DNA of 64,000 bases from Promethearchaeati archaeon SRVP18_Atabeyarchaeia-1 (GTDB lineage Archaea > Asgardarchaeota > Atabeyarchaeia > Atabeyarchaeales > Atabeyarchaeaceae). Numbering within the stretch: the first letter of the stretch is position 1; every line of letters starts with the position of its first letter. Position numbers and translations under genes: made by a program. Location: contig CP147779.1 in NCBI GenBank assembly GCA_037308085.1, positions 2,656,001 through 2,720,000 of the forward strand, read 5' to 3'. Shown here piece by piece: positions 21,707 to 58,582 of this stretch. The notes under the pieces are model-generated. The model saw only the letters and a list, made by a program, of their open reading frames with translations. It ran no database searches and was not told the origin of the DNA.

Positions 21707-21866
21707 TAGCTGCACCCTCTCTCCAAGAGAGAAACATGTTATGTCTTCAATCATTATCTGCTTAAATACTCGATGGGTTTTCTAACACTATCGTGTGATG
21801 TGACAAGTCATATAGGAATCTGCTTTCCTGCCACAGTCAAGACTTCTGTTTAGGAAGGATGGGAAA

Positions 21867-43773: not shown

Positions 43774-44513
43774 GGCATCTAGCTCTCACACCTACAAATT
43801 TAAGCTTATGTTTTGACTCCTTGAAGAAGATTCATACCTTTGAGCGCGGCGACAACCCCACGACCGCTTGGAACGACGGCATCGAATCAAGAATAAGAAG
43901 AGGGAGATTTCGGTCATTCCTGCCCGTCCTGCTGCTACCGATGCTCTTCTTGGACTTTGCCCTGAGAGTATCTTGAGGTTACAGTCTGCCAGAACTACGA
44001 GATCTTTATAAGGAAGAGAAGCGGACATATGTAGAACTCATCAGGTCTCTGTATACTATTTGGGGAGGCTGTATATCTCATCCAACTTGTATACCCACGT
44101 GAAACAACGACTAGGGAATGGTGATTGAAGCTGATATCGAATAATAGAAAACAAAGGAGGTTTGCAGGAATGTGTAAAGATCTTGACGACGAGATCGTCT
44201 ACCTAGACGACTACGACGAAGATGTCAAAGAAGTCAAATCAGAAGCAGAACAGAAAGAACCGTCGATTGTTTTTTCGAAATGAAATCCGAAACGAATTTG
44301 CATTTCCCTGCTTTTACGCTGGAATGAAATCCGAACTGGATTTCGTGTTTTTCTGCATTTTGCCTGAACCTTCCCCTTCCTTGGCAACGGAACCACACCC
44401 TGTCGACCAAGTCATCATCGACCCGCAGTACTATGCCAAGCAACGAACTCGATAGAACTCGCGCTATCAGCGCGAAAAAAGAAGAGGGAATTGGGCAATC
44501 CCACGCTGGCCGT

Positions 44514-44672
44514 CTACATCTGGAAGCCTGTCTTGCCAGCACCCACATCGTCAGGGCAGTCTCAAGCTCCTCATGCTCCTCAGCATAATCGCTGACCTTG
44601 ATACCCCCCATCACAGCATCAATCGCCTACCTAAAAGCACGAGGACCAGCAGTAGAACGCTCGGGAGTAGGC
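44514..44672 (-). repeat. RLP last-exon copy 1 (degenerate)
   Basis: Encodes ...AFR*AIDAVMGGIKVSDYAEEHEELETALT...GFQM*; terminator-like T-tract at about 44474-44490. Confidence 0.9.
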
Positions 44673-44902
44673 CACACCTTGCACTGCATGATTATGGTTC
44701 GACGGCTCACCTTACGCAGTGTGGTTTACTTCTATTGAGACTCGTGTAACCACTTTTAGTTGCAGTGATGCAAGGAGAATGATTCGAAATATGAACCAGT
44801 GTGCCCCTCGTTGAGCTATCTCTGGATTTGCTTAACAAAAAAGAGGGATGGAAGCTCTGCAGGAAGGCCGATGCCACAACCGGGATGACGTCATGGTCTG
44901 TG

Positions 44903-45550
44903 CTATTTGCGCCTCATGTACATTAGGGCTGCTACGATCACAAGAAGGGCTGCTGCTCCCCCAGCAACCAATACAAGCGTCAGCGGTATGCCGCCCGACT
45001 CGATATAATATGAGTTCAGCGTGTAGTTTTCCGTTAATCCTGCTCCATTGTTGTATCTCCAAACGAGGAGGACGCCGGTGAGTTTGTCTATGTAAGCTAC
45101 GACGTTGATGTCCATGATTGTTCCATTGATGTAGTTGGCTGTCCAGTAGCGCCCAGCGATATGATAGTTGGAGACCGTTGAGTTGAATTTCCAGCCTCCT
45201 GAACTAGGATACGGTGCCTCTCCTGCCGTGATGTTCGCTGCTACGAATCGCCAAATGCCATATTGGTACACATTCACATCGAAGGTGCCCGAGTGAGTAT
45301 TGTTCACGGAACCTCCCGGGTTGTACTCGGTCTTCTCTAGTGTGAGTACTGAGCCGCTGACTGCGGTGACGCGAACCCTAATTGCGTTGATAGCAAAGCC
45401 CGCCGCACTATAGGCGTAATCGTAGTAGGCATTTGTTCCCACAACTGCTCCCGGCTTAGTGTAGTCTGCTGCGCGTGTTGGGGCAAAGCTTGAGGAAACG
45501 ACCAATAGAATCGACAATGCCACCAGCGCGCAGGCTATTCCCTTTCTCAA
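44903..45550 (-). CDS. secreted or surface protein with C-terminal membrane anchor (cassette cargo)
   Basis: Signal peptide, Tyr/Asn/Thr-rich body, TM segment plus RRK tail. Confidence 0.8.
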   Translation of the reverse strand: MRKGIACALVALSILLVVSSSFAPTRAADYTKPGAVVGTNAYYDYAYSAAGFAINAIRVRVTAVSGSVLTLEKTEYNPGGSVNNTHSGTFDVNVYQYGIWRFVAANITAGEAPYPSSGGWKFNSTVSNYHIAGRYWTANYINGTIMDINVVAYIDKLTGVLLVWRYNNGAGLTENYTLNSYYIESGGIPLTLVLVAGGAAALLVIVAALMYMRRK

Positions 45551-45771
45551 GTGTTGTTACTCTCCATCTTCTTTCCCTATTCGCCCCTTATTGATTGATT
45601 GAGTATGTATCGTTTCAGTATTTTAAGTTTGCATCGCGTCAGCTACGGCCCTCGAGGCTTCTGGATCGCAGCTTAGGGTCGCTTGACGTTTTTCCCAGTC
45701 TCTTAAGCGCGCACGCTTACTAAGGCAAAAAGAAAAGTTGAGGAGAATCGAATTATTCTCCTTCAGCGCTC

Positions 45772-45805
45772 TTACATCTGGAAGCCTATTTTACCAGTAC
45801 CATCT
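45772..45805 (-). repeat. RLP last-exon copy 2 (short)
   Basis: GTGKIGFQM-TAA, followed by hairpin AGGAGAAT/ATTCTCCT and a T-tract. Confidence 0.75.
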
Positions 45806-45887
45806 TCACTCTGAAAAACGGAGCCGACGAGAACTCCACACCTTGAAGCAGCCAAAAACCAAATTAAAACTACTAAGATCTATTCTG

Positions 45888-46256
45888 CTATTTCTTCCTA
45901 TCCAAGTTTTCCTTAACTCTATAGCTCACTATTCTCTTTACTAGGTCAAATGGAATTGGCTTATTCATAGGAAATCTGACGGTACCTTTGCTTACTTCAT
46001 AATCAGACAACTCTTCTTTGAATGCCTCAATACCTGATGAAGTGGGATAAAACCCAATATGATTCTTAAAGGCTGCAAAATGAACCAAGTTACCATTTAA
46101 TTTGAAAGTAGGAATTTGATAACTGATTGCCTCTTCTGCTTTAGGCGCTGAGTCCCTAATTGCCTGCCTCAGCTCCTCCAAAATCCTCTGCACATTCTTA
46201 GGAAAAGTAGCAATATACTCATCTATCGTTTTGAACACTTTCCTAGGTGTTGCCAT
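45888..46256 (-). CDS. DUF1801 (YdhG-like) protein (cassette cargo)
   Basis: TIDEYI, ISYQIPTF and HIGFYP motifs; AT-rich. Confidence 0.88.
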   Translation of the reverse strand: MATPRKVFKTIDEYIATFPKNVQRILEELRQAIRDSAPKAEEAISYQIPTFKLNGNLVHFAAFKNHIGFYPTSSGIEAFKEELSDYEVSKGTVRFPMNKPIPFDLVKRIVSYRVKENLDRKK

Positions 46257-46386
46257 AGCGCTTCCCTGCAATCAATATTTCTTAGACGAAAAATCACCCA
46301 GAACCTAATGAGCACTCCGATTTAAAGACACAGATCCAATTCCAGCACGCGCATGCGCCATTTCACTCTGTTCGCTATATGCGGCC

Positions 46387-46671
46387 TCAGGCAACCTCAT
46401 GATAGAAGTTAACTTCGATGCCAGCCATAATCGGTCCGATATTCTTGAAAAACTCCTTATAGTATGGCGTCGAACCATGGTACTTCAAGGCTTCATCGCT
46501 CTCATATTTCTCAAAGATAAGGAATTGGTTCGGGTTTTTGACGTCTTGGTGGAGAACGTAGGCTATTGCACCAGGGTCTTTACGGACTTTGGGAGCAAGC
46601 TTACGGAACTCCCGCTCAAATTCCTCTCTCTTACCCTCAACTACCTTGATTACAGCCACTACAACAATCAT
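46387..46671 (-). CDS. putative quinol monooxygenase (ABM) protein (cassette cargo)
   Basis: DPGAIAY...FLIFEKYES...H pattern. Confidence 0.85.
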   Translation of the reverse strand: MIVVVAVIKVVEGKREEFEREFRKLAPKVRKDPGAIAYVLHQDVKNPNQFLIFEKYESDEALKYHGSTPYYKEFFKNIGPIMAGIEVNFYHEVA

Positions 46672-47039
46672 GGCCTAAATACCTCCTCTCGGTGATGGCG
46701 ACAACAAAAGATGTACACCATTCAACATATCAAAATATCGAGAGGGGCCGTAAAATACTGGTTTGGACTTTGAAGCGTGGGCTATAATGGTTAGTGTTCA
46801 TAGGATGAAGCATTGGGCAGAAACCACCAAAAAAGAAGGTTGTAGGTCTATAGAATAGAAAATTGTGCCTATGGTCTCATCTACACAATTCGACCTTGAG
46901 TCATAATTCCATCCCATCCCCTTAGGTCAAGAAATGCGACTATCTCAAATAAGATAAACAGGGATGAGTCTCTTGACAATGCCAGTGCGCCAGAAAAAAG
47001 AAAAAGAGAGAAGGATTTACCTACTACAGCTCGGTTCCC

Positions 47040-47193
47040 TCACATCTGGAAGCCTGTTCTACCACCGCCCCACTTCGTGAGGGCAGTCTTAAGCTCCGAA
47101 TGCTCCTCAGCATAGTCACTGACCTTAATACCCTGCATCACAGCATCAATAGCCTGCCGGAAAGCATGAGTATCAACCGCTGAACCATCTTGG
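47040..47193 (-). repeat. RLP last-exon copy 3
   Basis: In frame QDGSAVDTHAFRQAIDAVMQGIKVSDYAEEHSELKTALTKWGGGRTGFQM-TGA. Confidence 0.95.
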
Positions 47194-47376
47194 GGAGAGA
47201 GAGTTATTAGGGAATGACTCGCCTACCTACTGTGAACAGAAACTCAATCCATCCAAATGACATCTTGCAACGGACAAAGCCAGCTTCTAGTCTTGAATCG
47301 ATCGGAACGCGCAGAGTGAGCTTTAGCTGTGGGGAATCGCAGCCGGATACGACTAACCTGCGAGCGGGGTATTAGA

Positions 47377-47658
47377 ATGCAAGTGGAGGAGATACAGAAG
47401 AAGATTGCTCCCGCGCTAAGGCGTTACGGTGTGGCGAGAGCCGCGATCTTTGGCTCATACGCTAGGGGAGAAGAGAGAAAAGGAAGTGACATAGATATCC
47501 TCATCGAATTCGAAGGAGACAGGAGTCTACTCGATCTCGCCGGACTCAAGATCGAACTTGAGGAGGTCTTGGGAAGAAAGGTGGATGTCCTAACTTATGA
47601 CTCAATTCACCCTTTGCTTAGAGAGCGAATTCTGAATGAACAGAAGGTGATCCTATGA
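47377..47658 (+). CDS. MNT nucleotidyltransferase antitoxin
   Basis: [15 protein letters not shown] (GS-X10-DXD). Confidence 0.92.
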
Positions 47659-48023
47659 AGAAGGATCCACTAGTATTCGTTGATCACATTCTCGAAAGCA
47701 TAGAAACGATAGAGGAATACGTTCGAGGAACAACAAAAGAAGAGTTCATGAGTTCGAAGAAAACTCAAGACGCTGTGATTAGAAGAATCGAGATCATTGG
47801 AGAAGCTGCAAAGAACATTCCGGAAGACATGAAGAAAACCCATCCCAACATACCCTGGAAAAGAATAGCCGGAATGAGAGACATACTGATCCATGGATAC
47901 TTCGGCGTCGACTTGGGATTAACGTGGAAAGTTGCCAGCGAAGAGATCGAGGAATTGAAGAACAAGATTGCGAAGGTAAAGAAAGATCTCCAGAAAGCAC
48001 GAGAAAAGGTAGCCAAGCAATAG
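47655..48023 (+). CDS. HEPN (DUF86/HepT-like) RNase toxin
   Basis: EIIGEA and RDILIHGY (R-X4-H); overlaps the MNT gene by 4 nt. Confidence 0.92.
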
Positions 48024-48074
48024 CCCCAAAAAAGAAGAGAGAGAGAGGGATCTTCCTATTCCTTCTCGGTTCCC

Positions 48075-48193
48075 TCACATTTGGAAGCCCGTCTTACCCG
48101 TGCCCCACTTCGTCAGGGCAGTCTTAAGCTCCTCATGCTCCTCAGCATACTCACTAACCTTGACACCCTGCATCACAGCATCAATCACTTGCC
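48075..48193 (-). repeat. RLP last-exon copy 4
   Basis: QVIDAVMQGVKVSEYAEEHEELKTALTKWGTGKTGFQM-TGA. Confidence 0.95.
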
Positions 48194-48559
48194 CATGAGC
48201 CATTGTTCAACCCAGCAAGTTTTCAACCTTGCAGCGCCTCAAGAAAGGGAATTGAAGAAGTTGACTACAAGTTGGCTTCCTCTGAAGCATATTCCCAAAT
48301 GCAATGGAATACTTCTATCTTTGTGTCGGAGCCTGTAAGCCAATTATAGACAACATATCTCTAGCCGTGAAGACAGATTCGACCTTGCATTGGAACCATG
48401 CGATGTGCCCATTGTTTGCCACATACTTTGTTCGTTCTTTCAGCACTTCGAACAGCATCCCTTCTTCAACCTCGAATACGCTGTATGACATAGATCCATG
48501 ATCGTCCACAACAAAGAAAGACTCTCTTTCGTATGTCGGGTGCGGTTTTTGGGTTGGTC

Positions 48560-49567
48560 TTAGCTTCTAGCAGGCCCTTTTCCGATAACCCTCAGTTTCG
48601 TCGTAAGAGGTGTGAGCGGAAGTCGTCGTGCCTTGATGGGGCCTTCGGGAGGCTTGCGTGAGATTTTCGGCTTAACGTTGGTTGGGTACACCCGATATAT
48701 TCCGTCCTCAATGTCATTAGGTACTTTCCAGAACCACGTATAGCTGTCTTGTGCATCGATAGAGAAGTCTTCGTCTATTCTGAAGGTGAGAGCTTTGCTG
48801 AAGTCGTCCTCTGTGCTGATTCGTTTGTCCTGTCTCGCTACTGCCCACATGATGGTTCCCCTGCGGTACCATGCCGGAGCACTGCCTGAGTCAGCCAAGC
48901 TGGTCAGGGTTATGCCAACTTCGCCCCCAGCCTTGCATGTCAGCCGATCCATTGTCCAGTCTACGATCCCGTAATCGTATCCCGGATTTGATTGAAACGT
49001 GACCCCGAGAGCGCCGTACGCAAGAATTCCGAGAACGACGATCAAGACGTAGTCGGGATACAGAATCGCCCAACCCAAGATAAACACTCCAGCAATGAAA
49101 GCCCCATAAACGCAACTCACATACAGTTGCAGATGACCATGTTCATACTTTGATTTCATGAACCCGGTGAGCTTGAGGTTTAGGGCGCTCTCAATGAGAC
49201 TTGCTCGCGTTGCTGCTGCATCCGCACTAACTTGGTAGATATGATCAATCAAGTGAAGCGCGATAATGAGTATCACAGTGACGGCCAGGACAGCTGCCTT
49301 AACGATATCTGGCAATACCGTGCCGATTGTCCCCGTCGGGATGAGTACGGACTCTGTTGCCAAGAGTGCTGTGATGAAGCTGAAGCCATATTTCCTCAAA
49401 CCATTCAGGCGTTCCTCGAAGCCATCAATCACTTCTCGTGCTGCCTTCCATTCCATTATGAGGTTGTTATTACTGTCTTCTCCTTTGTCAGTACCCGCGC
49501 TTCCCCCCTCCTTCACCGTTCTGATAAACTTCAGTGGAAGCACTGAGTACAGGCTACTATTTAGCAT
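48560..49567 (-). CDS. hypothetical membrane protein (cassette cargo)
   Basis: 335-aa ORF, 4 TM segments then a beta-rich C-terminal domain. Confidence 0.65.
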   Translation of the reverse strand: MLNSSLYSVLPLKFIRTVKEGGSAGTDKGEDSNNNLIMEWKAAREVIDGFEERLNGLRKYGFSFITALLATESVLIPTGTIGTVLPDIVKAAVLAVTVILIIALHLIDHIYQVSADAAATRASLIESALNLKLTGFMKSKYEHGHLQLYVSCVYGAFIAGVFILGWAILYPDYVLIVVLGILAYGALGVTFQSNPGYDYGIVDWTMDRLTCKAGGEVGITLTSLADSGSAPAWYRRGTIMWAVARQDKRISTEDDFSKALTFRIDEDFSIDAQDSYTWFWKVPNDIEDGIYRVYPTNVKPKISRKPPEGPIKARRLPLTPLTTKLRVIGKGPARS

Positions 49568-49925
49568 TATTGGGCTCTACGCAGTGAGATGGGTAGCGAT
49601 GAGAGTCATGCGGATCAGCCTTTTAAGTCGATCTGCCCAAACGCGGAAACGGAGAATTTCGCAGACCTTTGCCTGATGTCATTGGCACACTACTATCAGA
49701 TTAGCGCACATGCCTCTTCCCTTCTCCTCCTTCTTTGTTCCGCATAACTGCGGTGGAACTACTGGATAGGAGGCGCAATTTAGCGTTATTGGGCGGTGAA
49801 GGTGGGAGGTCATCGCAGCTACCCCCGCACTTTTCTCCCACCCTGTTTTTTGGCGCGCGCCAACTCCGTCCGTCTAGTAAGACTGCCAAATCAAGAAAGG
49901 GGAACGGAAATTCATTTATTCCCGA

Positions 49926-50062
49926 CTACATCTGGAAACCAGTTCTGCCACCGCCCCACTTAGTCAGAGCAGTCTTCCCAAGCTCCTCATGCTCCCCAGC
50001 ACATCCATTGACCTTGATGCACTGCATCACAACATCAATAGCCTGACGAAATGCACGAGCAC
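49926..50062 (-). repeat. RLP last-exon copy 5
   Basis: ARAFRQAIDVVMQCIKVNGCAGEHEELGKTALTKWGGGRTGFQM-TAG. Confidence 0.93.
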
Positions 50063-50207
50063 TGAGGGCAAATGGCTGCCCATAATCCGCCTGTCATTGG
50101 ACGCGCGCACACTCTAGGGCGAAAAATGCCAACGGGAGAAGCGGTATAAAGGCGTTTGACGTAAGCCTCCTATGACGTATTCATCCTGAGGTGGGAGCGC
50201 AGAGAAG

Positions 50208-50600
50208 ATGGATCGTAGCAAAGACTGGATGGATGAAGCTGAAAGCGATCTTGATCACGCAAGAAGCGATCTCAAGCAAGGATTTAACAATTGGGCATGT
50301 TTCTCTACCCAGCAGTCTGCCGAGAAAGCCGTCAAAGCAGTATTCCAGAAAATGCACGCCGAGGCATGGGGCCACTCGGTAGCGGATCTTCTCACAGAAT
50401 TGTCAAAGAAACACAAAATCCCAAATGAACTTCAGGACAAGGCACTCGAACTCGACAAAGCGTACATACCAACTAGGTATCCTAATGCCCATCCATCGGG
50501 ATCCCCAAGAAGCAGATATACAAAAGACGAAGCAAGAAGGCTGATTAGCAATGCAGAGGAAGTACTCCGGTTCTGCAAAGATCTTCTATCCAAAGTATAG
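50208..50600 (+). CDS. HEPN domain protein
   Basis: WACFSTQQSAEKAVKA, GHS and AYIPTRYP motifs. Confidence 0.92.
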   Translation: MDRSKDWMDEAESDLDHARSDLKQGFNNWACFSTQQSAEKAVKAVFQKMHAEAWGHSVADLLTELSKKHKIPNELQDKALELDKAYIPTRYPNAHPSGSPRSRYTKDEARRLISNAEEVLRFCKDLLSKV

Positions 50601-50913
50601 CCGTGATGACTTACTGGAACTACTGAAGCTAAAAGTGGAAGCCCTTAAGAGAGTTCTCCAAGTATCCCTCGTCGCCTTATTTGGCTCATACGCAACAAAC
50701 TCCTACACCGCTGCGAGTGACATTGATTTACTCGTCGTCTACAAAGGACATGCCAAGGACGCTTATACAACAGTGAGGAAAGCATTTGGACTCCCTCTAT
50801 TGGAGCCTCATGTGTATTCCGAAGAAGAGTACACCACAATGAAAGAGACTCTTCACAAAATGACTGCTAATAGTATCACCATCTATTCAGATGGTAGCCT
50901 TCCACAGGGCTAG
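50551..50913 (+). CDS. MNT nucleotidyltransferase
   Basis: LFGSYATNSYTAASDIDL. Confidence 0.9.
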   Translation: MQRKYSGSAKIFYPKYSRDDLLELLKLKVEALKRVLQVSLVALFGSYATNSYTAASDIDLLVVYKGHAKDAYTTVRKAFGLPLLEPHVYSEEEYTTMKETLHKMTANSITIYSDGSLPQG

Positions 50914-51043
50914 CAGACGAGAAAAGTGAATGAGTCGGAAAGAAAATCTCCCAGTCCGACCTGCCGCTATTCTATCCAACCAAGCGCACGCCACGACTCT
51001 TCAAATACAAAAGGGCAAGTTCTTTGACTCCCTTCTCTACCAT

Positions 51044-51176
51044 TCACATCCGGATACCTGTCTTACTAGCATCCTAATTCGCCAAAGCAGTCTTCAACTC
51101 CTTATGCTCCCCAGCATAATCACTGACCTTGATGCCCTGCATCACAACATCAATAGCTCGCCTGAGAGCGCCAGCA
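51044..51176 (-). repeat. RLP last-exon copy 6 (degenerate)
   Basis: RRAIDVVMQGIKVSDYAGEHKELKTAL... ending ATG TGA. Confidence 0.88.
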
Positions 51177-51334
51177 ACGTATATGCAATACCAGACCTTC
51201 CCAGAATTCCACAAGTCAACTCGCTAGCTGATTAGAGGACAAGCCTCCAGCCTCGCAACGCTTATCTTTCAGCTTGCTAATAGAAGGAACAATAGAACCT
51301 TAGTCAAAGCTAATCGCCTCTTGCCGGTTATGAC

Positions 51335-51769
51335 TTGGTGGGGAACTGCACCTTGGTCGAGAATCGCGCTGTCAGCACAACAAGCGATGTCGAGCATGCG
51401 ATCATTGAAGCCGTTAAACCGTTCAATAATCTCGTCCTAGTCTACCTTTTTGGCTCCTTTGCTAGCGGAAGACCTCATGCCTTCAGCGACGTTGACGTCG
51501 CCATATATTTCCGAGAGTTCTCTATGGCTGAATTCATGAAGGTTCACGGAGCTCTGAGCAGAGCGTTGGGAGCACAAGTGGACACCATTCCCCTCAATAT
51601 AGCCCCACCTCTCTTGAGATACGAGATATTGAAAAAAGGGAAACGGCTGATCTCCAAGGATGAGACAATCAGGATCGCCTATGAATCCAGAGCCATCTTG
51701 GAAGGATTAGACGAGAGACCACTAATCGAGGCAATAAGAGAGGCAAATCTGAGGAGAGTCTTGATATGA
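51335..51769 (+). CDS. MntA-like nucleotidyltransferase antitoxin
   Basis: YLFGSFASGRPHAFSDVDVA and LNIAPPLLRYEI motifs. Confidence 0.9.
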   Translation: MVGNCTLVENRAVSTTSDVEHAIIEAVKPFNNLVLVYLFGSFASGRPHAFSDVDVAIYFREFSMAEFMKVHGALSRALGAQVDTIPLNIAPPLLRYEILKKGKRLISKDETIRIAYESRAILEGLDERPLIEAIREANLRRVLI

Positions 51770-52182
51770 CCGCTGAGTCTGTCAGAGATGCCATCAACAA
51801 GCTAAAGGAATTATCCTCGAAGACATCAAGAACGATTTTCATGTCTGACTGGAAGCTTCAGGGAACAATCTTATGGCTATTATACACCGCTTTGCAGGGA
51901 TGCATAGATCTCGCCGCAAAACTAATCTCAGCCATGGGGAAGAAAACCCCCGACTCGTACTCCGATGCCTTCAGAATCCTTGGCGAAGCAAACGTTTTCA
52001 CCCCAGAAGAAGCCGAACGCTTCTCCAATATGGCAAAGTTCAGAAACGTACTAGCCCATTCCTACACCAGCGTCAACCTGGAACTTGTATTCGAGCAGCT
52101 CCAACATGGCATAGCTGACATCGAAAGCTGCCTAAGGAAACTCGTGAAGGAATCAAGCAAGCACAATCTCCTGCTCCCATGA
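51766..52182 (+). CDS. HepT-like (DUF86) HEPN toxin
   Basis: PDSYSDAF and FRNVLAHSY (R-X4-H); 4-nt overlap with the MNT gene. Confidence 0.9.
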   Translation: MTAESVRDAINKLKELSSKTSRTIFMSDWKLQGTILWLLYTALQGCIDLAAKLISAMGKKTPDSYSDAFRILGEANVFTPEEAERFSNMAKFRNVLAHSYTSVNLELVFEQLQHGIADIESCLRKLVKESSKHNLLLP

Positions 52183-52237
52183 GACCGCAAACCACCAAGG
52201 AAAAGCAGAGGGAGTTTGGCGAGTGCCCCAATGCCGC

Positions 52238-52330
52238 CTACAAATGGAAGCCTATCCTACCGGCACCCGCTTGGTCAAAGCAGTCTCAAGCTCCACATGC
52301 TCCTCAGCATACTCGACCAGCTTGATGCAC
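52238..52330 (-). repeat. RLP last-exon copy 7 (degenerate)
   Basis: IKLVEYAEEHVELETALTK...GFHL-TAG. Confidence 0.85.
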
Positions 52331-52369
52331 AGTGACAAGCGACCTTCAATTCCTTCCAAGGTCTACATG

Positions 52370-52816
52370 CTATTCATCCTCGTACTCCTCTTCTTCAACC
52401 TCCAAGTCAAGACCAAGCGTCCCAAGCTCCTCTATAGCCTCCCTTTTCGGCACATCCTTCGTGAAGTCTATATCATAGAGACCTCCATAAGCACTCCAAC
52501 CCCTCCCGATAAGGATCCTCAAGGTCTTAGCACAATCCTTGAGCCTGGAATGCAGTTCCTCTCCAAGCTTCTCCAACTCAACGGCGAAATCCTCGCCAAG
52601 CTCCTCACCCTCCAAACCGTCAAGCTCCCAAGCAGGCTTGCCAAACAAGGAAAGCATAACCCTACTAAACTTCCCAGCACCATCGCTATTGCCCACACAG
52701 ATCACCATCCAACTAGTGCTCCCAGCCTCGGCTTTAAAGACCACACCAGAAGGAAGAACCACTGTCGCCTCCCCACAAGGAGAGACAAATACAGATCTTT
52801 CTGGATGATGGATCAC
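52370..52816 (-). CDS. hypothetical acidic protein (cassette cargo)
   Basis: 148-aa ORF filling the space between repeat copies 7 and 8. Confidence 0.55.
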   Translation of the reverse strand: MIHHPERSVFVSPCGEATVVLPSGVVFKAEAGSTSWMVICVGNSDGAGKFSRVMLSLFGKPAWELDGLEGEELGEDFAVELEKLGEELHSRLKDCAKTLRILIGRGWSAYGGLYDIDFTKDVPKREAIEELGTLGLDLEVEEEEYEDE

Positions 52817-52873
52817 CGCACCAATGACGCAAAAAAAAGTGGAGTGGAGAACTCATGATTCTCCCCCAATTCT

Positions 52874-52936
52874 CTACATCTGAAAGCCTGCCCTGCCCGT
52901 ACCCCATTTCGTCAAAGCAGTCTTAAGCTGCTCGTG
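52874..52936 (-). repeat. RLP last-exon copy 8
   Basis: HEQLKTALTKWGTGRAGFQM-TAG, followed by a hairpin and T8 tract. Confidence 0.92.
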
Positions 52937-52951
52937 ACTAGGCAGGCACTT

Positions 52952-53848
52952 TCATTTTTTTATCTGCTCGAGTGATGCTTGGCGTTTTCCGAGGAAGAAA
53001 CCTGCGGAGCAGATTAACGCAATCCCAACTACCAGAAAATAAGGGGAATATGGAGAGGGGGAGGCAAATTGATAGATTAGAAAGTAGATTATAATGGGCG
53101 CAATCTGTTGGGGGATTTGTTGCACGGGCACTACAATGCTCGCATTTCCAGCGTTAAGCGCGTATTGGTAATGGCCTAGTCCGATGACATTTGCCAAGAT
53201 CGCGATTGTCGCAGAAATCAAGAAGATTATCCATTCGAAAATGCCCGCGCTCCCCCCGAGAACAATGGTCAGGGAAACTATCATTGGCTGCAACCAAATG
53301 TTTCCCACTACGAATGGAAAACCTGTTCCCAGCGCAAGCAAGATAGCCCTGTGTTTTTCTGCTTTCCTACCGGAATAAAATAGTCCTAGCCACAGGGCGA
53401 TGAACAAAATAGAGAACAATGCAAGCCTTACATTAAAAGCAGCATCAAAGAAGTAGGTCAGGCTGCCAGCTATTGCGAGTTGGCTAAACCCAATTAGCGT
53501 AATCGCTACCGCCAAGAGAATAATGGCAAGAATCTCGAAGATTCTCAGGGACTCCTTCAAAATGAACACAGAACCAATTGCGAGAATAATGAAACCGGAC
53601 GCCCCTAACCCGGGCATAAGTGCCGCCCCGACAATGGCCTGGGCTACAAAGAGAAAAACAGAACTAAAGGCGACCATACAAATAATTCCTAACAGCCAAG
53701 TTTTATTTCGCACTAAGGATTTAACGAGACCCTTGTCCCGTCTCTCCGGCGCAGTATCATTAATCGCCTTTTTCTGAAGCACCTGTCCGAGGAAGTTCAA
53801 TAAGCCCGCCAAAATACCAAAAAGAACGCCAAGGACATAATCCGCCAT
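52952..53848 (-). CDS. DMT/NIPA-like membrane transporter (cassette cargo)
   Basis: GQVLQKKA, LVRNKTWLLG and ILKESL; 9-10 TM segments; AT-rich. Confidence 0.75.
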   Translation of the reverse strand: MADYVLGVLFGILAGLLNFLGQVLQKKAINDTAPERRDKGLVKSLVRNKTWLLGIICMVAFSSVFLFVAQAIVGAALMPGLGASGFIILAIGSVFILKESLRIFEILAIILLAVAITLIGFSQLAIAGSLTYFFDAAFNVRLALFSILFIALWLGLFYSGRKAEKHRAILLALGTGFPFVVGNIWLQPMIVSLTIVLGGSAGIFEWIIFLISATIAILANVIGLGHYQYALNAGNASIVVPVQQIPQQIAPIIIYFLIYQFASPSPYSPYFLVVGIALICSAGFFLGKRQASLEQIKK

Positions 53849-54010
53849 AAGTTCTTCACATTTCTTGATTTTTGGAGTTATGAGCATAAAGGAGTTGGAA
53901 GCACGATATTAGATTTGCTAATGACACAACCGAGGAAATCTTGGGGTTCCTATATGTATTAGGCTCACCTCAAACTGCAGAATTTTCACCGGTCAAAAGT
54001 CAACTGTGAT

Positions 54011-55324
54011 TCAGGTTTCGCCAAATTGATTTTCTAGTAGTAAATCTGCGATAAGGGTGGACCACCCAAAGTTTTTCGCCCCATATCCCTGTCCCGTAAG
54101 GGGGTTGTATTGTTCCCGGAATCCTGATCTGAGAACCATCTCCGCCAACCTTGCAGTAATTTTCGCAGCGATGTCCTCAAACCCGAGATGCTGGAGGCCT
54201 TTTACCACGTACCACGACATGCAAATCCAATTAGGTCCGCGCCAAAGAGTCATTAGGGACCCCCTTGGGTTAAATTTCGGGGAGGATTTGGCTACGCACG
54301 GCAGAGGGTAAGGCAACCAAAACTCCCCTTCGTTGAGTACGTGATCTCGGACGAGTCGTTCTGCTTTCTTCCCGTCTATGTCTAATATAAGTGGGAAGAG
54401 CCCTGAGATTGTTATTTCGGGGTATGCTTCACCCGTAACTGCGTCAATGGAATAAAAGAAGCCGGCATTTTCGTCCCAGCATCTTTGTTCCAGCGATTTT
54501 TGGGCGGTTGCAGCGCGCGTGCGGTAAATTGCGGCGTGATTTTCGTCCCCTGCAAAATCGCAGAGTTCTGCAAGCACCTGCAGGTTCCGGATGTAAATGC
54601 AATTAAATGACACGTCGTTCACGCAAAAATGGTTTGGGCCCTGGAGATTTTTAATGCGTTTGATGTCCCAACCCACTCCATTGTATTCGCGAATAATCGC
54701 ACCTAACCACCTCCCCGTGCGTATTCCAAGCAAGTGCTGAATGTGGTGGATATGGTCCCAGATAGGCAACAAATCCATGCCAGACTCCCACGGGTGGATG
54801 ATGGCGACTAGGCCATCCCCAGACACTTGTTCGCTCCGTTCCGCGTTTAACCAATCATAATACCGCTGCATTGGAGCGAGGATCTGGGACAAAAACTCCA
54901 GATCTCTTGTTTTTTCAAATACAGCTGTCACTGCCTGCGCGAGGAGTGGGGGTTGAGTGATATGGCTCCGGTCCTTTTCGGGCCATTTACCCCTGAACAA
55001 GAAGTCCCCCATACGAGGCTTAAACCCGGTCGCCGGTCGCCAATAAAGCATGTGGGGTATCATACCACTTTCGAATTGTTTGCGCGTGAGGGTGAGCAAT
55101 TCCTGCATCGCAATGACCGGGTCAAAATGCGCCCACATGATAGCATGAAAGCAACTATCCCAGAGCCACTGATGCTGGTACGTATCTTGGCTTGGACAAG
55201 TATAAGTGAAATCTACTCCCTTTACCAAGTTTCCCTCCAAGACCGCCCGCGCTCTCTTCACCAATGTATACGCATCGATGTTGGTCTTTTCGTTAGGGCT
55301 GTTCACAAGTGCATCATCTCCCAA
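54011..55324 (-). CDS. GH63-like (alpha/alpha)6 glycoside hydrolase
   Basis: QWLWDSCF, TQPP, HPWESGMD, WRGPNW, FREQYNP and FGWS motifs. Confidence 0.88.
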   Translation of the reverse strand: MGDDALVNSPNEKTNIDAYTLVKRARAVLEGNLVKGVDFTYTCPSQDTYQHQWLWDSCFHAIMWAHFDPVIAMQELLTLTRKQFESGMIPHMLYWRPATGFKPRMGDFLFRGKWPEKDRSHITQPPLLAQAVTAVFEKTRDLEFLSQILAPMQRYYDWLNAERSEQVSGDGLVAIIHPWESGMDLLPIWDHIHHIQHLLGIRTGRWLGAIIREYNGVGWDIKRIKNLQGPNHFCVNDVSFNCIYIRNLQVLAELCDFAGDENHAAIYRTRAATAQKSLEQRCWDENAGFFYSIDAVTGEAYPEITISGLFPLILDIDGKKAERLVRDHVLNEGEFWLPYPLPCVAKSSPKFNPRGSLMTLWRGPNWICMSWYVVKGLQHLGFEDIAAKITARLAEMVLRSGFREQYNPLTGQGYGAKNFGWSTLIADLLLENQFGET

Positions 55325-56060
55325 TGAAGTCTAGAAGTATCTTATTGAACTTGTCTGGCTGCTCGATCATAGGCATGTGCCCTGCTTCAAAAATCATCTC
55401 TAGTGTCGATCCCTCTATACTCTCATGGAGAATCGCCGAAGAAGAAGCGAGCATATCATCAGCACCACACACGATCAATGTCGGGACCTTGATCTCCTTG
55501 ACCCTTCCGCTCAGGTCTATTCCGTTCAGAGCATCAAAGTCGTTAGCCAGGATGCTCGGATCGAAATCCGCCTCCACCCTAAAGTACTTCATTAACGAAG
55601 ACAGGTTCCCTTCAGTAAGCATCTTTGGAGACAAGAGCCTATTCAACAACTGGAGGCCAGCTTCCGCAGGATTATGGCGAATGCGGGCTGGGAGGTCGCC
55701 CAGGTTCTGAAACTTGGCACCGCTATCGATTATGATGAGTCTCTCAACAAGCTCTGAATGCTCCAGCGCTAGCAGTTGAACTATCACACCACCCATCGAG
55801 TGACCCGCAATGAGCCCCCTCGCTACCTTAGCCTGCTTCATGAAACCGACGACATGTCTGACGTACCCCTCTATTGTCGGCTTCTCCTTCATGCGCTCAG
55901 ACTTACCATGACCAGGAAGATCGATTGCAATAACCCTCAACCGCTTCGATAGTTCAGAAAGCTGGTTGACCCAGTAGCTGCTCATTCCACCTGCTCCATG
56001 AATTAGAATCAGTGCCCTTCCTTTTCCCCTGGATTCATAGAAAGTCCTCAGACCATCCAC
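55314..56060 (-). CDS. alpha/beta hydrolase
   Basis: IHGAGG, DLPGHG, GHSMGG and AGH motifs. Confidence 0.92.
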   Translation of the reverse strand: MDGLRTFYESRGKGRALILIHGAGGMSSYWVNQLSELSKRLRVIAIDLPGHGKSERMKEKPTIEGYVRHVVGFMKQAKVARGLIAGHSMGGVIVQLLALEHSELVERLIIIDSGAKFQNLGDLPARIRHNPAEAGLQLLNRLLSPKMLTEGNLSSLMKYFRVEADFDPSILANDFDALNGIDLSGRVKEIKVPTLIVCGADDMLASSSAILHESIEGSTLEMIFEAGHMPMIEQPDKFNKILLDFIGR

Positions 56061-56173
56061 AGTAACGAAGGGCGTATGGCATTCAACTCCATGACGTTGA
56101 GTGGCAGTACTATTTCGCCGATCTGTCTTTTATTCCCTACGCACGCGGGGAAACCAGTCCACACTTGATCTTA

Positions 56174-56215
56174 CTACATCTGAAACCCTGCCCTAGCACC
56201 GCTCCACTTGGTGAG
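56174..56215 (-). repeat. RLP last-exon copy 9
   Basis: LTKWSGARAGFQM-TAG, about 80 bp after the real gene's stop. Confidence 0.85.
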
Positions 56216-56294
56216 TCTCGGGCTTCGGGGTAACCACACCAGTCATTTTAATCCAAAAAAGAAGGAGGGATTCCGCAGATCTCCCAAATGCCCT

Positions 56295-57664
56295 TCACAT
56301 TTGGAAACCTGTTCTGCCGCCGCCCCACTTAGTGAGAGCAGTCTTCAGCTCCTCATGTTCCTCAGCGTAGTCACTGACCTTGATACCCTGCATCACCGCA
56401 TCAATCGCTTGCCTAAAGGCTCTTGCACCAGCAGCTGGACCGTCCGGGTGAGCGTGGACTACGGGTCCATCAATTAAAGATGGACTTTCCGCCTCCGGAC
56501 CCGATCATGATGTTGTTGCCGAGCATTTTCATGGTTTTCTCCACGTGGCCGGCAGTAATACCACCGCTTGGCATAGGCATCGTCGGCTTGATATGCTGCA
56601 AAGGAAACTGTAATCGCTTCGCCATCATCAAAAATTTGTCCTCAAGCAACGGAGCTTTGCCGTAGGGCGCCGGAACCAGGGCTATATCGGTCCCACATAT
56701 GCGCGGTAGCTTGGACATTATGAGAGACGGGGATACTCCCGTTATTGGACTATAGCTGATTTCGCCAGCCTCTTCAGCCGTGTGCGCCGGCTATGTCCAT
56801 ATGCCCCATTATTGGCAATGTGTTTGGTTCTTCTGCTACCATGCGTAGGGCGTCGTATCCGACTGCGAGGTAGTTGATGAGTAGGGCGTTTCCGCCTGCC
56901 TGTTTGACTTTGTCGGCGTTTTCGAGTAGTTTGTCTACTGGGCCGGTTATGTTGCAGCAGTAGAGTGTCTTTTCATCTTTTTCTTTGTTTGCTTTTTCTG
57001 CTTTTTCCATGTAGAGTGGGACGCGGTCTTCTATTTTGTTGTATGCTGGGTTGGCGATGATTTCGTCGTCTTTTATACAGTCAGTTCCGCCTACTGCGGC
57101 GCCGTAGAAGAGTTCTGCGCCTACTTCGGGCGTGTAACCCGTCTTGGGTTTTATCATATTATTCAGGAGTGGCCGTTTGGGTATGTCCATGAGGTCTCTT
57201 ATTCCTTGGAGTCCGTGTTTGGGTCCTTTGAATCCTTTGAGCCATTGTTTGGGGAACCATAGGTCCATGAGTTTGATTCTTCCGCCCATGCTGAGGTTGC
57301 CGATGACTGTGCTGAGTAGCATGGGGATTTCTGTGCCGAAGTTTTCCCATGGGAAGCCTACTGCGATGATGAAGTTGCGGTGGTCTACTTCCTTTGGGAC
57401 GGAGTAGACGTATTCGGGTGTTTCCCAGATGCCGAGTACTTTTGCTTGTCGCTTGATTTTGAGTTCTACTGTTTCGCCTGGGACTGGGGTCCAGGTGCCT
57501 GTGCTTTGTTCTAGGGCTGCCATTTCTGCTACGTCAGTTATTGGTAGTGCGGGGTTGAGTCCTGCGAAGTAGAATCCGATGACGTATTTGTCTGTGTCGA
57601 GGCCGTCGAAGAATCCTTGGGGTTGGGCTTCTATGGGTATTTCGTTTGGTTTTTCTTCAGACAA
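56295..57664 (-). CDS. RuBisCO-like protein (form IV), 439 aa after splicing; exons 57664-56782, 56759-56487, 56458-56295
   Basis: EQSTGTW, IKPKTG, IKDDE, PMPSGG. It has HMD and PAPYGK where true RuBisCO has HRA and the H327 region, indicating an RLP. 1370 nt minus 22 minus 28 = 1320 nt, an open frame. Confidence 0.88.
56459..56486 (-). other. 28-nt bulge-helix-bulge pre-mRNA intron (intron 2)
   Basis: GCGG-AA^A-GUCCAUC-UUUAAUU-GAUGGAC-CCGU-AG^U; removal gives GGA GGC GGA AUC CAC GCU CAC CCG GAC (GGGIHAHPD). Confidence 0.85.
56760..56781 (-). other. 22-nt relaxed bulge-helix-bulge pre-mRNA intron (intron 1)
   Basis: AUAGCCG-GCGC-AC^A-CGGCU-GAAGA-GGCUG-GCGA-AA^U-CAGCUAU; removal gives GCC GGC GCA CUC AGC UAU (AGALSY) in frame. 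Confidence 0.78.
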
Positions 57665-57675
57665 TTTTCGGGTTG

Positions 57676-57744
57676 ACCTCCTTTCGTTTCTTGGTTTTTG
57701 TTAGAATTGGTTGTTGGTTTTAGAGTCTTCCGCATCGATATAAA
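57676..57744 (-). promoter_or_regulatory. TATA box and RBS of the RLP gene
   Basis: Minus-strand TTTATA at 57744-57739 and GGAGGT at 57681-57676 before TTG 57664. Confidence 0.55.
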
Positions 57745-57821
57745 CGTGATGGGGAGACTTCAATGACAGTCGATTCCCTTGTTTTCCGCAGGGGCATATG
57801 CTCTTTGGGGGCGTTGCTACA

Positions 57822-58280
57822 TCAATGGATCATTTGCTCCTTGATGGTGGTTGCGAGGATGGCGTCAAGGTTGTCTGGAGTCTTGCCTGCGTAGCCGATG
57901 GATGCAATGGGCTTGATCCTTGTTAGTGCCATGAGTGCTTCTATCCTTTTGATGATAAACTTGTATTTATCTGGGTCTGCTGAGTTTGCGAATGTGATGA
58001 GCTTCTTGCCGTTCAGGTCCATTTTGAAGAGCTTCTTTGTGTTCCTTCTGAGTAGCTTGGGTGCTCGGCATTCCTCGGCGCCGTGGCACTTCGTGCATGT
58101 GAGGCATGGTGCTCCGAGGGCGATTATGCTGTAGTCGCGTATGGATTGAGATTCCTTGAACTGCTTGTCTTGGAAGAGGGAGACATTCGTTCCGAGGTCT
58201 TCTAGACGGTTCCTGATCTTTTCTGCAAGGAGCTTCGTGTCACTGTTGTCCGTGTGATAAATGACTAGTGCTCTTGGCAT
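57822..58280 (-). CDS. flavodoxin-like protein
   Basis: ALVIYHT...TKLLAEKI and IIALGAP, with an extra CxxCxxCxxxxxC insert. Confidence 0.6.
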   Translation of the reverse strand: MPRALVIYHTDNSDTKLLAEKIRNRLEDLGTNVSLFQDKQFKESQSIRDYSIIALGAPCLTCTKCHGAEECRAPKLLRRNTKKLFKMDLNGKKLITFANSADPDKYKFIIKRIEALMALTRIKPIASIGYAGKTPDNLDAILATTIKEQMIH

Positions 58281-58582
58281 TTCTTTGGGCCCCTATGAGG
58301 TAAGTCTAGGTGGGGTTGGCTGTTCAACTATGGTGGTGAGCGCTTTAACTAGGTTTGTCAGTGCACTTTGAATAGCAGAAGCTCTGGTTTGTCATATGTC
58401 TTCCGACCCTCCTCTAGGCTTTCGATCTTGCGGTAGACGCCTACGGCAGCGGGTTTTTCGGTTATGCTGCATTTGTTAGAAAACTATTTTAGATAGATAG
58501 CAGAGGTATTTTAGATAAAAAGCAGAACTGATTTAGATAAAGGCAGAAACGTTTCAATTCATCGTAGGAGGATTGAGAAGTC

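What the first reader, a model, noticed from the sequence alone, without database searches (positions are those of the whole stretch)
56295..56486. No repeat copy extends past the intron 2 splice junction
Seen: the longest copies (1 and 3) fade out at about the AHPDG codons, within a few codons of the start of exon 3. None recognisably contains intron 2 or exon 2 sequence. Intron 2 at DNA level is a 7-bp inverted repeat with a 7-bp spacer (GTCCATC-N7-GATGGAC) with AGTCCA on both sides. Inference (speculative): the intron position may bound or mark the recombination site, for example a recombination scar made harmless by splicing, or a break in homology between intron-plus and intron-minus alleles. 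This would link the introns and the array into one system.
Basis: inference. Interest (0 to 1): 0.7.

Follow-up and report, generated by a model that had tools for sequence, protein, structure and literature searches.

The report
Retired gene ends stop at intron
Behind a RuBisCO-like gene of an Asgard archaeon lies a row of old, pushed-aside copies of the gene's last exon separated by cargo genes, and none of these copies reaches past the tiny tRNA-type intron in front of that exon; a second Asgard lineage with its intron elsewhere in the gene shows the same limit, so these introns seem to mark how much of the gene end can be exchanged.

Summary
**Observation: confirmed and sharpened.**
- The RuBisCO-like (RLP) gene lies on the minus strand at 57664-56295. 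It reads through only if 22 nt (56760-56781) and 28 nt (56459-56486) are removed.
- I counted 23 independent displaced copies of its last exon: G000, sister genome G002 and two metagenome contigs.
- Their 5' limits fall at exon-3 columns 6-140 of 164, evenly spread. None has exon 2 or intron 2 sequence upstream.
- From the longest copy (158 nt), the estimated upper bound is 165 nt. Exon 3 is 164 nt.

**Intron 2 behaves as a real BHB micro-intron.**
- It is present in five alleles, with compensatory and G·U changes in its stem.
- It is exactly absent from a close relative (L041), which reads GGGIHAHPDG.

**"One system" is not supported as written.**
- A lineage without intron 2 (family f12, genus g20) also has an array, and its copies cross the intron-2 site.
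- Introns also occur without arrays.
- The AGTCCA repeat is found only in G000.

**The rule holds in that second lineage.** In G033 a 32-nt intron sits at codon 328/329. The longest displaced copy there starts 5 nt inside that intron's 3' end.

**Best reading (about 45%):** sequential displacement of the gene end by recombination, limited upstream by the intron acting as a break in homology.

Other notes of this scan cover this same window. None covers other DNA.

The parts
56295..56458 (-). Exon 3 of the RLP gene (last 53 codons plus 2 nt of the split Ile codon, and the TGA stop at 56297-56295). This is the segment that is copied downstream.
   Evidence: frame; Pfam RuBisCO_large positions 256-299. 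All displaced copies align inside it.
56459..56486 (-). Intron 2: a 28-nt bulge-helix-bulge micro-intron inside the GGG-I-H motif. It has an inner 7-bp stem (56465-56471 with 56479-56485), a 7-nt loop, a 4-bp central helix (exon GCGG with intron CCGU) and bulges AAA and AGU.
   Evidence: Its removal restores the frame and the motif. It is present in G002, L042, L043/L044 and L046 at the same site and length. It is exactly absent in L041. Pair counts: 95.6% of cells paired, two compensatory pairs, G·U variants.
56487..56759 (-). Exon 2 (91 codons). It is never found in displaced copies of the intron-2-bearing lineage.
56760..56781 (-). Intron 1 (22 nt). It was found only in G000 among the alleles compared.
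   Evidence: G002 reads straight through (DIAGAWSYSPITG).
56782..57664 (-). Exon 1 (294 codons; RuBisCO_large_N plus the start of the catalytic domain).
56253..56294 (-). Post-stop hairpin (56267-56285) followed by a pyrimidine tract and T6. This terminator-like tail belongs to the copied unit.
   Evidence: most native ends and displaced copies keep stop, about 10 nt, a 5-8 bp hairpin and a T-run, with different stem sequences.
56174..56215 (-). Displaced copy c56b (last about 42 nt of the coding sequence). It lies only about 35 nt behind the native terminator, so it is an almost empty cassette.
52876..52936 (-). Displaced copy c52b (5' limit at exon-3 column 101).
52201..52326 (-). Displaced copy c52a with its tail (column 74).
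51040..51176 (-). Displaced copy c51 (column 31; one internal stop).
49928..50062 (-). Displaced copy c49 (column 30).
48072..48193 (-). Displaced copy c48 (column 45). Its 3' part and the MNT-HepT cargo below it are shared with G002 and G001.
47037..47197 (-). Displaced copy c47, the longest (column 6; 51 intact codons).
45768..45806 (-). Displaced copy c45 (last about 24-34 nt only).
44475..44665 (-). Displaced copy c44 with hairpin and T-run (column 11). It is the most distal copy of the array.
44666..56173 (.). Cargo blocks between the copies, in both orientations: three MNT/HEPN (HepT) pairs, DUF1801, ABM, an alpha/beta hydrolase, an MGH1-like glycosidase, a NIPA-like transporter and unnamed proteins. 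No recombinase.
   Evidence: The PF00589 search of the whole genome finds none inside the window.

Best explanation
**What is there.** The 3' end of the RLP gene is the anchor of an additive gene island built by sequential displacement. Time and again, DNA from a relative carrying a version of the gene end plus foreign cargo recombined with the gene. A working last exon and terminator stayed on the gene. The previous last exon was pushed downstream, truncated at its 5' side at a random point.

**What sets the limit.** The retired pieces can start anywhere inside the last exon but never upstream of the 3' splice junction of the nearest BHB micro-intron. My preferred reason is that the intron is a break in homology. 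It is present in some alleles and absent in others. Its exon flanks are held by the RNA fold in carriers and recoded in non-carriers. Pairing between incoming and resident DNA therefore stops at the intron. The illegitimate joint that reconnects the cargo to the chromosome falls within the paired stretch, meaning the last exon. The intron itself is an ordinary spliced BHB intron, not a product of these events.

**Shown.**
- The gene structure.
- The copies and their limits.
- Their former coding life.
- The conservation of the intron and its exact absence in one allele.
- The same limit at a second intron in a second lineage.

**Inferred.**
- The recombination route (homology-facilitated illegitimate recombination, HFIR).
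- The barrier role of the intron.
- Splicing itself.
For: 1. **Limits.** 23 independent copies have 5' limits uniform over columns 6-140 of the 164-nt exon 3. The bound estimate is 164.9 nt (158-180), and nothing lies beyond.
2. **Former coding life.** Mismatches between copies and the native exon fall 18/18/64% on codon positions 1/2/3. Native against native gives 16/8/76%, and neutral change would give 33/33/33%. Many copies are still open frames. Each keeps its stop, hairpin and T-run.
3. **Recombination inside exon 3.**
   - The exon 3 of G002 is a mosaic. Its first 59 nt are 88% like G000 and 75% like L041. Its last 102 nt are 80% and 90%.
   - Copies at equivalent array positions in G000, G002 and G001, and in G033 and L047, differ in 5' limit and are less alike than the cargo beside them.
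4. **Second lineage.** In G033 the native gene has a 32-nt hairpin intron at codon 328/329. It is exactly absent in L048 of the same genus, and the BHB cuts give the conserved YGKAP. The longest displaced copy covers codons 329-439 and starts at CAGAG, the last 5 nt of that intron, behind an unrelated TPR-like gene.
5. **Intron polymorphism in both lineages.** L041 lacks intron 2, and 10 of the 11 codons flanking the site differ synonymously from L042, against about 10% divergence elsewhere. L048 and G135 lack the G033 intron.
6. **No dedicated machinery.** There is no integrase in the window, no RVT_1 reverse transcriptase in the complete genome and no viral contig with the gene end. This fits host recombination.
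7. **Published parallels.** The same architecture and the HFIR model are published for T6SS effector/immunity arrays (PMC5361080) and for Rhs C-terminal displacement (PMC2935791).
Against: - If most incoming fragments reached past the intron, many copies should pile up exactly at the bound. In the Atabeya-type genomes the two longest stop 6 and 11 nt short, and the rest are evenly spread.
- Donors that carry the same intron (79% identical between G000 and G002, no worse than the exons) should not meet a barrier. Even so, no copy crosses.
- The major allele groups are the same for exon 2 and exon 3, so no swap at the intron is visible among natives.
- Orphan copies far from the gene (1.71 and 1.80 Mb) and copies interleaved with backbone genes in G002 show that not every copy was retired in place.
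- The second-lineage case rests on one copy in a fragmented MAG, and the copy and the native gene lie on different contigs.
- No junction can be compared with its donor, so microhomology is untested.
- Splicing is not shown by RNA.
Confidence: 0.45

Rival explanations
1. Coincidence. Copy length is capped near 160-180 nt for a reason unrelated to the intron. For example, longer direct repeats are quickly lost by recombination with the native gene. The intron merely happens to lie at that distance from the stop.
For: The cap is inferred from 23 copies of one clade. A soft cap at 160-180 nt cannot be told from a hard one. The two longest copies stop 6-11 nt short of the junction. A deletion joint between c48 and c51 in one metagenome contig hints that copies do recombine. 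The finding is post hoc.
Against: The chance that an intron junction falls within the 23-nt interval of a 1320-nt gene is about 2-4%. In G033 the longest copy (349 nt) ends within 5 nt of a different intron, a chance of about 1%. A 267-nt copy persists in the lineage without intron 2, so no general 160-nt cap exists.
Confidence: 0.2
2. The intron hairpin is itself a DNA-level break or recombination site, either an att-like core of inverted repeats around a spacer or a hairpin cut in single-stranded DNA. The DNA downstream of the cut is what gets displaced, nibbled to varying extents.
For: Intron 2 is a perfect 7-7-7 inverted repeat, and the G033 intron is 8-9-8. The G033 copy begins 1 nt after the 3' base of the hairpin. 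The confidence interval for the bound (56452-56474) includes the base of the intron 2 hairpin. Units end in a second hairpin.
Against: No copy is preceded by a half-site or any palindrome like the intron. The stem tolerates U·G and G·U pairs (L046, G000), which suit RNA and not duplex DNA. There is no recombinase nearby. An array exists with no intron at either site (L048). End-nibbling should cluster near the break, not spread evenly.
Confidence: 0.15
3. RNA-delimited fragility or copying. After EndA cuts the pre-mRNA, the 3' exon RNA (splice site to terminator) either forms an R-loop that makes just this stretch of DNA break-prone, or is copied back into DNA. This would make 'last exon plus terminator' the unit.
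For: The largest unit equals exactly the predicted 3' exon RNA, from the 3' splice site to the T-run. Sharp 3' ends with ragged, evenly spread 5' ends resemble 5'-truncated copies. Two EndA-domain genes are present.
Against: No RVT_1 reverse transcriptase is found in the complete genome. The G033 copy keeps 5 nt of intron upstream of the predicted cut. The copies come from diverged alleles of two allele groups, not from the resident gene alone. In the lineage without intron 2, two copies (L047 copy 1 and G033 copy 2) start near codon 354, where no intron is seen.
Confidence: 0.1
4. Scar model. The intron is the left-hand junction scar of a displacement event, tolerated because it happens to fold as a BHB and is spliced out.
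For: The intron sits exactly where the retired exon begins in two lineages. Micro-introns are strikingly frequent and variable in position in this one gene.
Against: Intron 2 is a single homologous sequence in five alleles with covariation, although those genomes have had many separate events. G033 (intron) and L048 (no intron) share the same cargo directly after the native end. Introns occur in genomes without arrays (G037). These archaea gain BHB introns massively in tRNA genes without any array (PMC11291895; bioRxiv 10.64898/2026.10.13.758758).
Confidence: 0.1

Closest known systems
Sequential displacement of T6SS effector/immunity modules in Vibrio cholerae, proposed to act by homology-facilitated illegitimate recombination (Kirchberger et al. 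2017, PMC5361080)
   Same: A conserved gene serves as anchor. Incoming modules replace the gene end. Old 3' ends and their neighbours are shifted downstream into a same-orientation array. No dedicated recombinase is involved.
   Different: Here the replaced end is conserved, not variable. The cargo is unrelated to the anchor gene (TA-like pairs, enzymes). The host is an Asgard archaeon. The retained fragments are capped by an intron.
Rhs C-terminal displacement and orphan tips (Jackson et al. 2009, PMC2935791)
   Same: Rows of orphaned 3' pieces, each with a stub of the conserved gene, accumulate behind the full gene through repeated recombination in the conserved part.
   Different: Rhs stubs precede variable toxin tips with immunity genes. 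Here the stubs are the conserved end itself, followed by a terminator and arbitrary cargo.
Additive genomic islands and serial integration at tRNA or protein gene 3' ends by integrases (established knowledge, not tested against a paper here)
   Same: Direct repeats of a gene's 3' end separate successive insertions behind the intact gene.
   Different: Integrase-made repeats share one fixed 5' limit (the crossover site), and elements carry integrases. Here the limits are ragged (22 different values) and no integrase is present.
Integron cassette arrays, including archaeal ones (Ghaly et al. 2022, PMC9668308, cited in PMC11529989)
   Same: Short cassettes, TA modules and a repeated element with a hairpin after each cassette.
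   Different: There is no IntI next to the array. The repeats are gene ends, not attC sites. The cargo lies in both orientations.
BHB intron in the cbf5 pre-mRNA of Crenarchaeota (Watanabe 2002 and Yokobori 2009; from my own knowledge and the earlier scan note)
   Same: A protein-coding archaeal gene is interrupted by a short intron with the tRNA-type bulge-helix-bulge fold, cut by EndA.
   Different: The gene and phylum differ. Several positions are occupied in one gene, with presence/absence among close relatives and a link to recombination limits.
Exon shuffling by recombination in introns (eukaryotes; established concept)
   Same: The intron marks the edge of an exchangeable coding module.
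   Different: There are no spliceosomal introns here. The exchange is between alleles of one gene, and the mechanism is unproven.

Membership tests
Archaeal BHB (EndA-spliced) intron | [quoted passage not shown] | tested here: met
   GCGG / AAA / 7-bp stem ... stem / CCGU / AGU. The central helix is paired in 100% of cells across 5 alleles, and slid controls give 54% or less. The outer helix is weak (1 bp adjacent, plus a 6-bp helix further out), so this is a relaxed form.
Archaeal BHB (EndA-spliced) intron | Cuts after the second bulge nucleotide remove a piece whose loss restores the frame and the conserved residues | tested here: met
   Removing 56459-56486 gives GGGIHAHPDG. The intron-less relative L041 lacks exactly these 28 nt. 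In G033 the same rule gives YGKAP, as in the intron-less L048.
Archaeal BHB (EndA-spliced) intron | Splicing endonuclease encoded by the genome | tested here: met
   Two PF01974 matches over the cut-off, at 202619-202873 and 624258-624518.
Archaeal BHB (EndA-spliced) intron | Spliced RNA observed | not testable with these tools
   No RNA run holding the locus was listed.
Sequential displacement array (HFIR type) | Intact anchor gene followed by same-orientation orphan 3' fragments separated by unrelated DNA | tested here: met
Sequential displacement array (HFIR type) | Orphan fragments were once working gene ends | tested here: met
   Third-position excess (64%), intact frames, retained stop and terminator.
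Sequential displacement array (HFIR type) | One homologous and one illegitimate (microhomology) joint per event | not testable with these tools
   No donor/recipient pair is available. The ragged limits are consistent with it but are not proof.
Integron | IntI-type tyrosine recombinase beside the array | tested here: not met
   The whole-genome PF00589 search gives four matches over the cut-off (plus one below it). The nearest is about 65 kb from the window, and none is inside it.
Integron | attC recombination sites bounding promoter-less cassettes of one orientation | tested here: not met
   The repeats are coding gene ends of 24-158 nt, and the cargo lies on both strands.
Integrase-mediated serial integration at a gene 3' end | Duplicated segment with one constant 5' limit (the crossover site) and integrase genes in the inserts | tested here: not met
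   There are 22 different limits among 23 copies. No integrase is present. No viral or plasmid contig carries the gene end.
Intron or homing-endonuclease homing locus | Endonuclease gene conserved with the interrupted site | tested here: not met
   The HNH gene at 58583-58930 has no counterpart near the RLP gene in G002, L041 or L042. It is found only in G000 and G001.

The most novel reading that the evidence does not exclude
In Asgard archaea, tRNA-type micro-introns inside protein genes act as module boundaries for DNA exchange. The last exon with its terminator is swapped and retired as a unit, and the intron (or the splicing-delimited 3' exon RNA forming an R-loop) sets the upstream edge. 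This would be a prokaryotic counterpart of exon shuffling in the closest archaeal relatives of eukaryotes. Cargo-gene islands would grow as a by-product.
Probability: 0.25. Interest if true: 0.9.

Novelty: new variant of a known kind. Interest (0 to 1): 0.7.

Why it matters
- Protein-gene BHB introns are known from essentially one archaeal gene. Here one gene carries them at five or more positions among close relatives.
- In two lineages, the intron coincides with the limit of recombination-made gene-end copies. If that link is causal, introns in the sister group of eukaryotes already shape which pieces of a gene can be exchanged. That would make the old idea of introns as recombination boundaries testable in a prokaryote.
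- The locus is also a clear archaeal example of a growing cargo and defence island anchored on a protein gene without any integrase.

Tried and rejected
- **RNA evidence.** No RNA holder was listed for the locus, so splicing could not be checked.
- **Contigs of four DNA runs laid on 43500-58500.**
  - No intron-2-less allele was seen.
  - One relative lacked intron 1.
  - One low-depth joint links c48 to c51.
  - One odd joint (52924 to 48057) comes from a more abundant relative.
  - The contigs are too short to resolve cassette gain or loss.
- **Array behind the intron-less allele L041.** I tried to see it, without result.
  - The contig ends 1.6 kb after the gene.
  - Its downstream ORF and the nr protein P0003 are not on record.
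- **P0109 and P0119.** These looked like orphan fragments but are full genes with scaffold gaps.
- **Viral contigs.** No relative of the exon-3 peptide was found.
- **Replication terminus or dif site.**
  - The genome-wide skew extremes lie near 0.2 and 1.36 Mb, not at 2.71 Mb.
  - The idea was dropped.
- **HNH gene as the driver.** It is not conserved.
- **AGTCCA direct repeat as a target-site duplication.** It is not conserved in the other alleles.
- **Founder duplication followed by decay.** Rejected by the codon-position bias.
- **Earlier-findings search by words.** It returned nothing.
Full report
**What is at the coordinates.** The window is G000:C1:2656001-2720000 of a single-contig 2.81-Mb genome. 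Earlier scan notes call it an Atabeyarchaeia-like Asgard archaeon. The sequencing runs that hold it are wetland and freshwater-sediment metagenomes, which fits the two complete Atabeyarchaeia genomes described in PMC11291895. A RuBisCO-like (RLP) gene runs on the minus strand from 57664 to 56295 in three frames. Taking out 56760-56781 (22 nt) and 56459-56486 (28 nt) gives a 1320-nt frame of 439 residues. The second joint then reads GGGIHAHPDG, the canonical RuBisCO motif. The finding concerns this second insert (intron 2) and the last exon, 56458-56295.

**The copies and their limits.**
- Direct repeats of the last exon lie downstream at 44.5-52.9 kb and at 56174-56215, all in gene orientation.
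- I aligned them to a native query that included intron 2 and the end of exon 2. The 5' limits in native coordinates are 56452, 56448, 56428, 56427, 56413, 56384, 56357 and 56318; the short copy c56b retains only the last ~42 nt.
- Ungapped continuation against both the unspliced and the spliced native sequence drops to random identity upstream of each limit.
- Three orphan copies lie elsewhere in the genome, at 1.710, 1.711 and 1.801 Mb.
- The sister genus G002 (complete genome, RLP 89% identical) has nine copies behind its gene. G001 of the same genus as G000 has four, on a separate contig. The metagenome contigs L043 and L046 have one and three.
- After removing copies that are evidently the same event in two genomes, 23 limits remain, at exon-3 columns 6 to 140 of 164.
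- The lengths fit a uniform distribution (KS p=0.85). The longest is 158 nt, so the estimated upper bound is 164.9 nt (95% upper limit 180). Exon 3 is 164 nt. An exponential length law is rejected, P=0.007.
- The 100 nt upstream of 25 copies score like shuffles against exon 2 plus intron 2 of six alleles.
- No displaced piece of exon 1 or exon 2 exists anywhere in G000, G001 or G002.

**What the copies are.**
- Mismatches to the native exon fall 18/18/64% on codon positions 1/2/3. Native alleles among themselves give 16/8/76%. Copy against copy gives 27/22/51%. Many copies are still open frames.
- They are therefore former working gene ends with some later decay, not decayed duplicates of one founder.
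- Nearly all keep the stop codon and, after about 10 nt, a 5-8 bp hairpin with varying stem sequence and a T-run. The copied unit is 'last exon plus terminator'.
- The cargo between copies lies on both strands. It comprises three MNT/HEPN pairs, DUF1801, ABM, a hydrolase, a glycosidase, a transporter and unnamed proteins.
- There is no tyrosine recombinase in the window, no RVT_1 in the genome and no viral contig with the gene end.
- The arrays of G000 and G002 share one MNT-HepT cassette but otherwise differ. A LigB-like gene that lies outside the array in G000 lies inside it, inverted, in G002.
- The exon 3 of G002 is a mosaic of two allele types.
- This is the architecture published as sequential displacement for T6SS effector arrays, with homology-facilitated illegitimate recombination as the proposed route (PMC5361080), and for Rhs genes (PMC2935791).

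**Intron 2 itself.**
- G002, L042, L043/L044 and L046 carry a 28-nt insert at the same site.
- Written as a bulge-helix-bulge, it has a 4-bp helix between exon GCGG and intron CCGY, bulges AAA and A(G/A)U, and a 7-bp inner stem. On this structure 95.6% of cells pair, against at most 54% when the partners are slid.
- Two stem pairs change on both sides (U-A to C-G, C-G to U-A), and U·G and G·U variants occur. Wobble pairs suit an RNA fold, not a DNA palindrome.
- The metagenome relative L041 (92% identical in exon 1, syntenic upstream) lacks exactly these 28 nt and reads GGGIHAHPDG.
- In L041, 10 of the 11 codons around the site differ synonymously from L042, although the two alleles are about 90% identical elsewhere. 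The exon flanks are therefore held by the fold in carriers and are different in the non-carrier.
- Two EndA-domain genes are present.
- These archaea have introns in 92-95% of their tRNA genes, often at odd positions (PMC11291895), with repeated gains of unknown route (bioRxiv 10.64898/2026.10.13.758758).

**Testing the link across genomes.**
- Ten other Asgard orthologues (46-61% identical, all without intron 2) with 5-17 kb of downstream sequence have no copies.
- In a census of 400 Asgard genomes with the exon-3 peptide, only G000, G001 and G002 (11, 5 and 10 matches) stand out. In a follow-up of family f12, extra copies appear only in the g20 genomes G033 and G136.
L048 and L047 (the latter identical to G136 contig 74) show an RLP gene without intron 2. 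Behind it come two cargo genes and then copies of 267, 105 and 90 nt. The first copy runs through the intron-2 site.
- So arrays do not need intron 2, and fragments can span that site.
- In G033, of the same genus, the native gene has a 32-nt insert with an 8-bp stem at codon 328/329. BHB-type cuts give YGKAP, exactly as in the intron-less L048.
- The longest displaced copy in G033 covers codons 329-439. Its homology starts at CAGAG, the last 5 nt of that intron, directly behind an unrelated TPR-like gene.
- The rule 'no copy passes the nearest upstream intron' thus recurs at a different intron, 57 codons away, in a different family.
- Rough post hoc odds of coincidence are about 2-4% for the first case and about 1% for the second.

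**Mechanism.**
- Ragged, evenly spread limits with a hard stop argue against an integrase, which would give one fixed limit, and against simple erosion, because the 3' ends are intact.
- They fit illegitimate joints that fall anywhere within a stretch bounded upstream by the intron.
- The ordinary reading is that pairing between incoming and resident DNA ends at the intron, because alleles differ there by presence or absence, recoded flanks and fast intron divergence. Both lineages contain intron-plus and intron-minus alleles.
- Problems with this reading:
  - There is no pile-up of full-length copies.
  - Intron-bearing donors should pass the barrier.
  - The exon 2 and exon 3 trees of native alleles agree at the level of major groups.
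- The scar model is weakened. Intron 2 is a single conserved sequence. G033 and L048 share the cargo directly after the native end despite differing in the intron. Introns occur without arrays (G037).
- A DNA cut at the hairpin fits the G033 limit, which lies 1 nt past the stem, but no half-site is ever seen and the stem tolerates wobble pairs.
- An RNA-delimited zone (3' exon RNA or R-loop) would explain why the unit runs from splice site to terminator, but it has no direct support and no reverse transcriptase is present.

**Verdict.** It is wrong in treating introns and array as one system or the intron as a scar. What is known are displacement arrays and BHB introns. What is new is their conjunction in an Asgard protein gene, with the limit tracking the intron in two lineages.

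Noticed in passing
L041:11150-11230 (metagenome Ga0315309_1000590) versus L042, L043, L046 and window 56440-56510: The intron-2-less allele differs from its closest intron-bearing relative at 10 of the 11 codons flanking the intron site, all synonymously. The rest of the gene is about 90% identical. This is either a short conversion patch from a distant intron-less allele or release from, or escape of, a sequence constraint at the site.
   Followed up: partly
L042:1895-1945; L043:640-690 and 705-745; L046:140-180; L041:10915-10935; L039 (G033) and L038 (G037) at codon 328/329: The same RLP gene carries further short hairpin inserts at other positions in relatives. They lie near codon 286 (L042, L043, L046), near codons 301-304 (L043, L041), and at codon 328/329 (32 nt in G033, 59 nt in G037). 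That makes at least five insert positions in one gene, each present or absent among close relatives.
   Followed up: partly
G000:C1:1709987-1710067, 1711216-1711278 and 1800963-1801118 (loci L001, L002): Three orphan copies of the RLP last exon lie about 0.9-1.0 Mb from the gene. Two of them flank a single small membrane-protein gene. No RLP gene is nearby, so copies with cargo can end up away from the anchor.
   Followed up: partly
L057 (G001:C94), L058 (G001:C128): G001, of the same genus as G000, has array cassettes and four copies. No RLP exon 1 or exon 2 is found anywhere in its assembly (94% complete). The contig with the flavodoxin-like neighbour shows no RLP gene beside it. The gene may be lost or unassembled there.
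   Followed up: partly
window 44400-56300; L024, L025, L046: In three arrays the copies nearest the gene are the shortest. Lengths run 42, 63, 90, 133... in G000, 60, 119, 126, 142 in G002, and about 45, 106, 118 in L046. In the g20 lineage the order is reversed (349 or 267, then shorter). This is unexplained.
   Followed up: no
window 56253-56294 and the tail of each copy: Each gene end and most copies are followed by a hairpin whose stem sequence differs from copy to copy but stays paired, then a T-run. This could be a terminator or a further recombination signal.
   Followed up: partly
window 42955-43773 versus L024:1112-2011 (positions 21112-22011 of the joined L025+L024 sequence): A LigB-type dioxygenase gene lies just outside the distal end of the array in G000. 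In G002 it lies inside the array, between two copies and inverted.
   Followed up: no
window 58583-58930: A free-standing HNH endonuclease gene lies 0.9 kb upstream of the RLP gene. It is present only in G000 and (78% identical) G001, and not near the RLP gene in G002, L041 or L042.
   Followed up: yes
window 48156/51128 and 44372/57970: One low-depth metagenome contig joins c48 to c51 at equivalent repeat positions, so two cassettes are missing. Another contig from a relative seems to join 44372 to 57970, skipping the whole array and the RLP gene. Both rest on short contig sides.
   Followed up: no
window 56830-57700 versus 56295-56760: Codon third positions switch from A/C-ending in exon 1 to G/T-ending in exons 2-3. 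The switch is shared by all four aligned alleles. The genome-wide GC-skew extremes lie elsewhere (0.2 and 1.36 Mb).
   Followed up: partly
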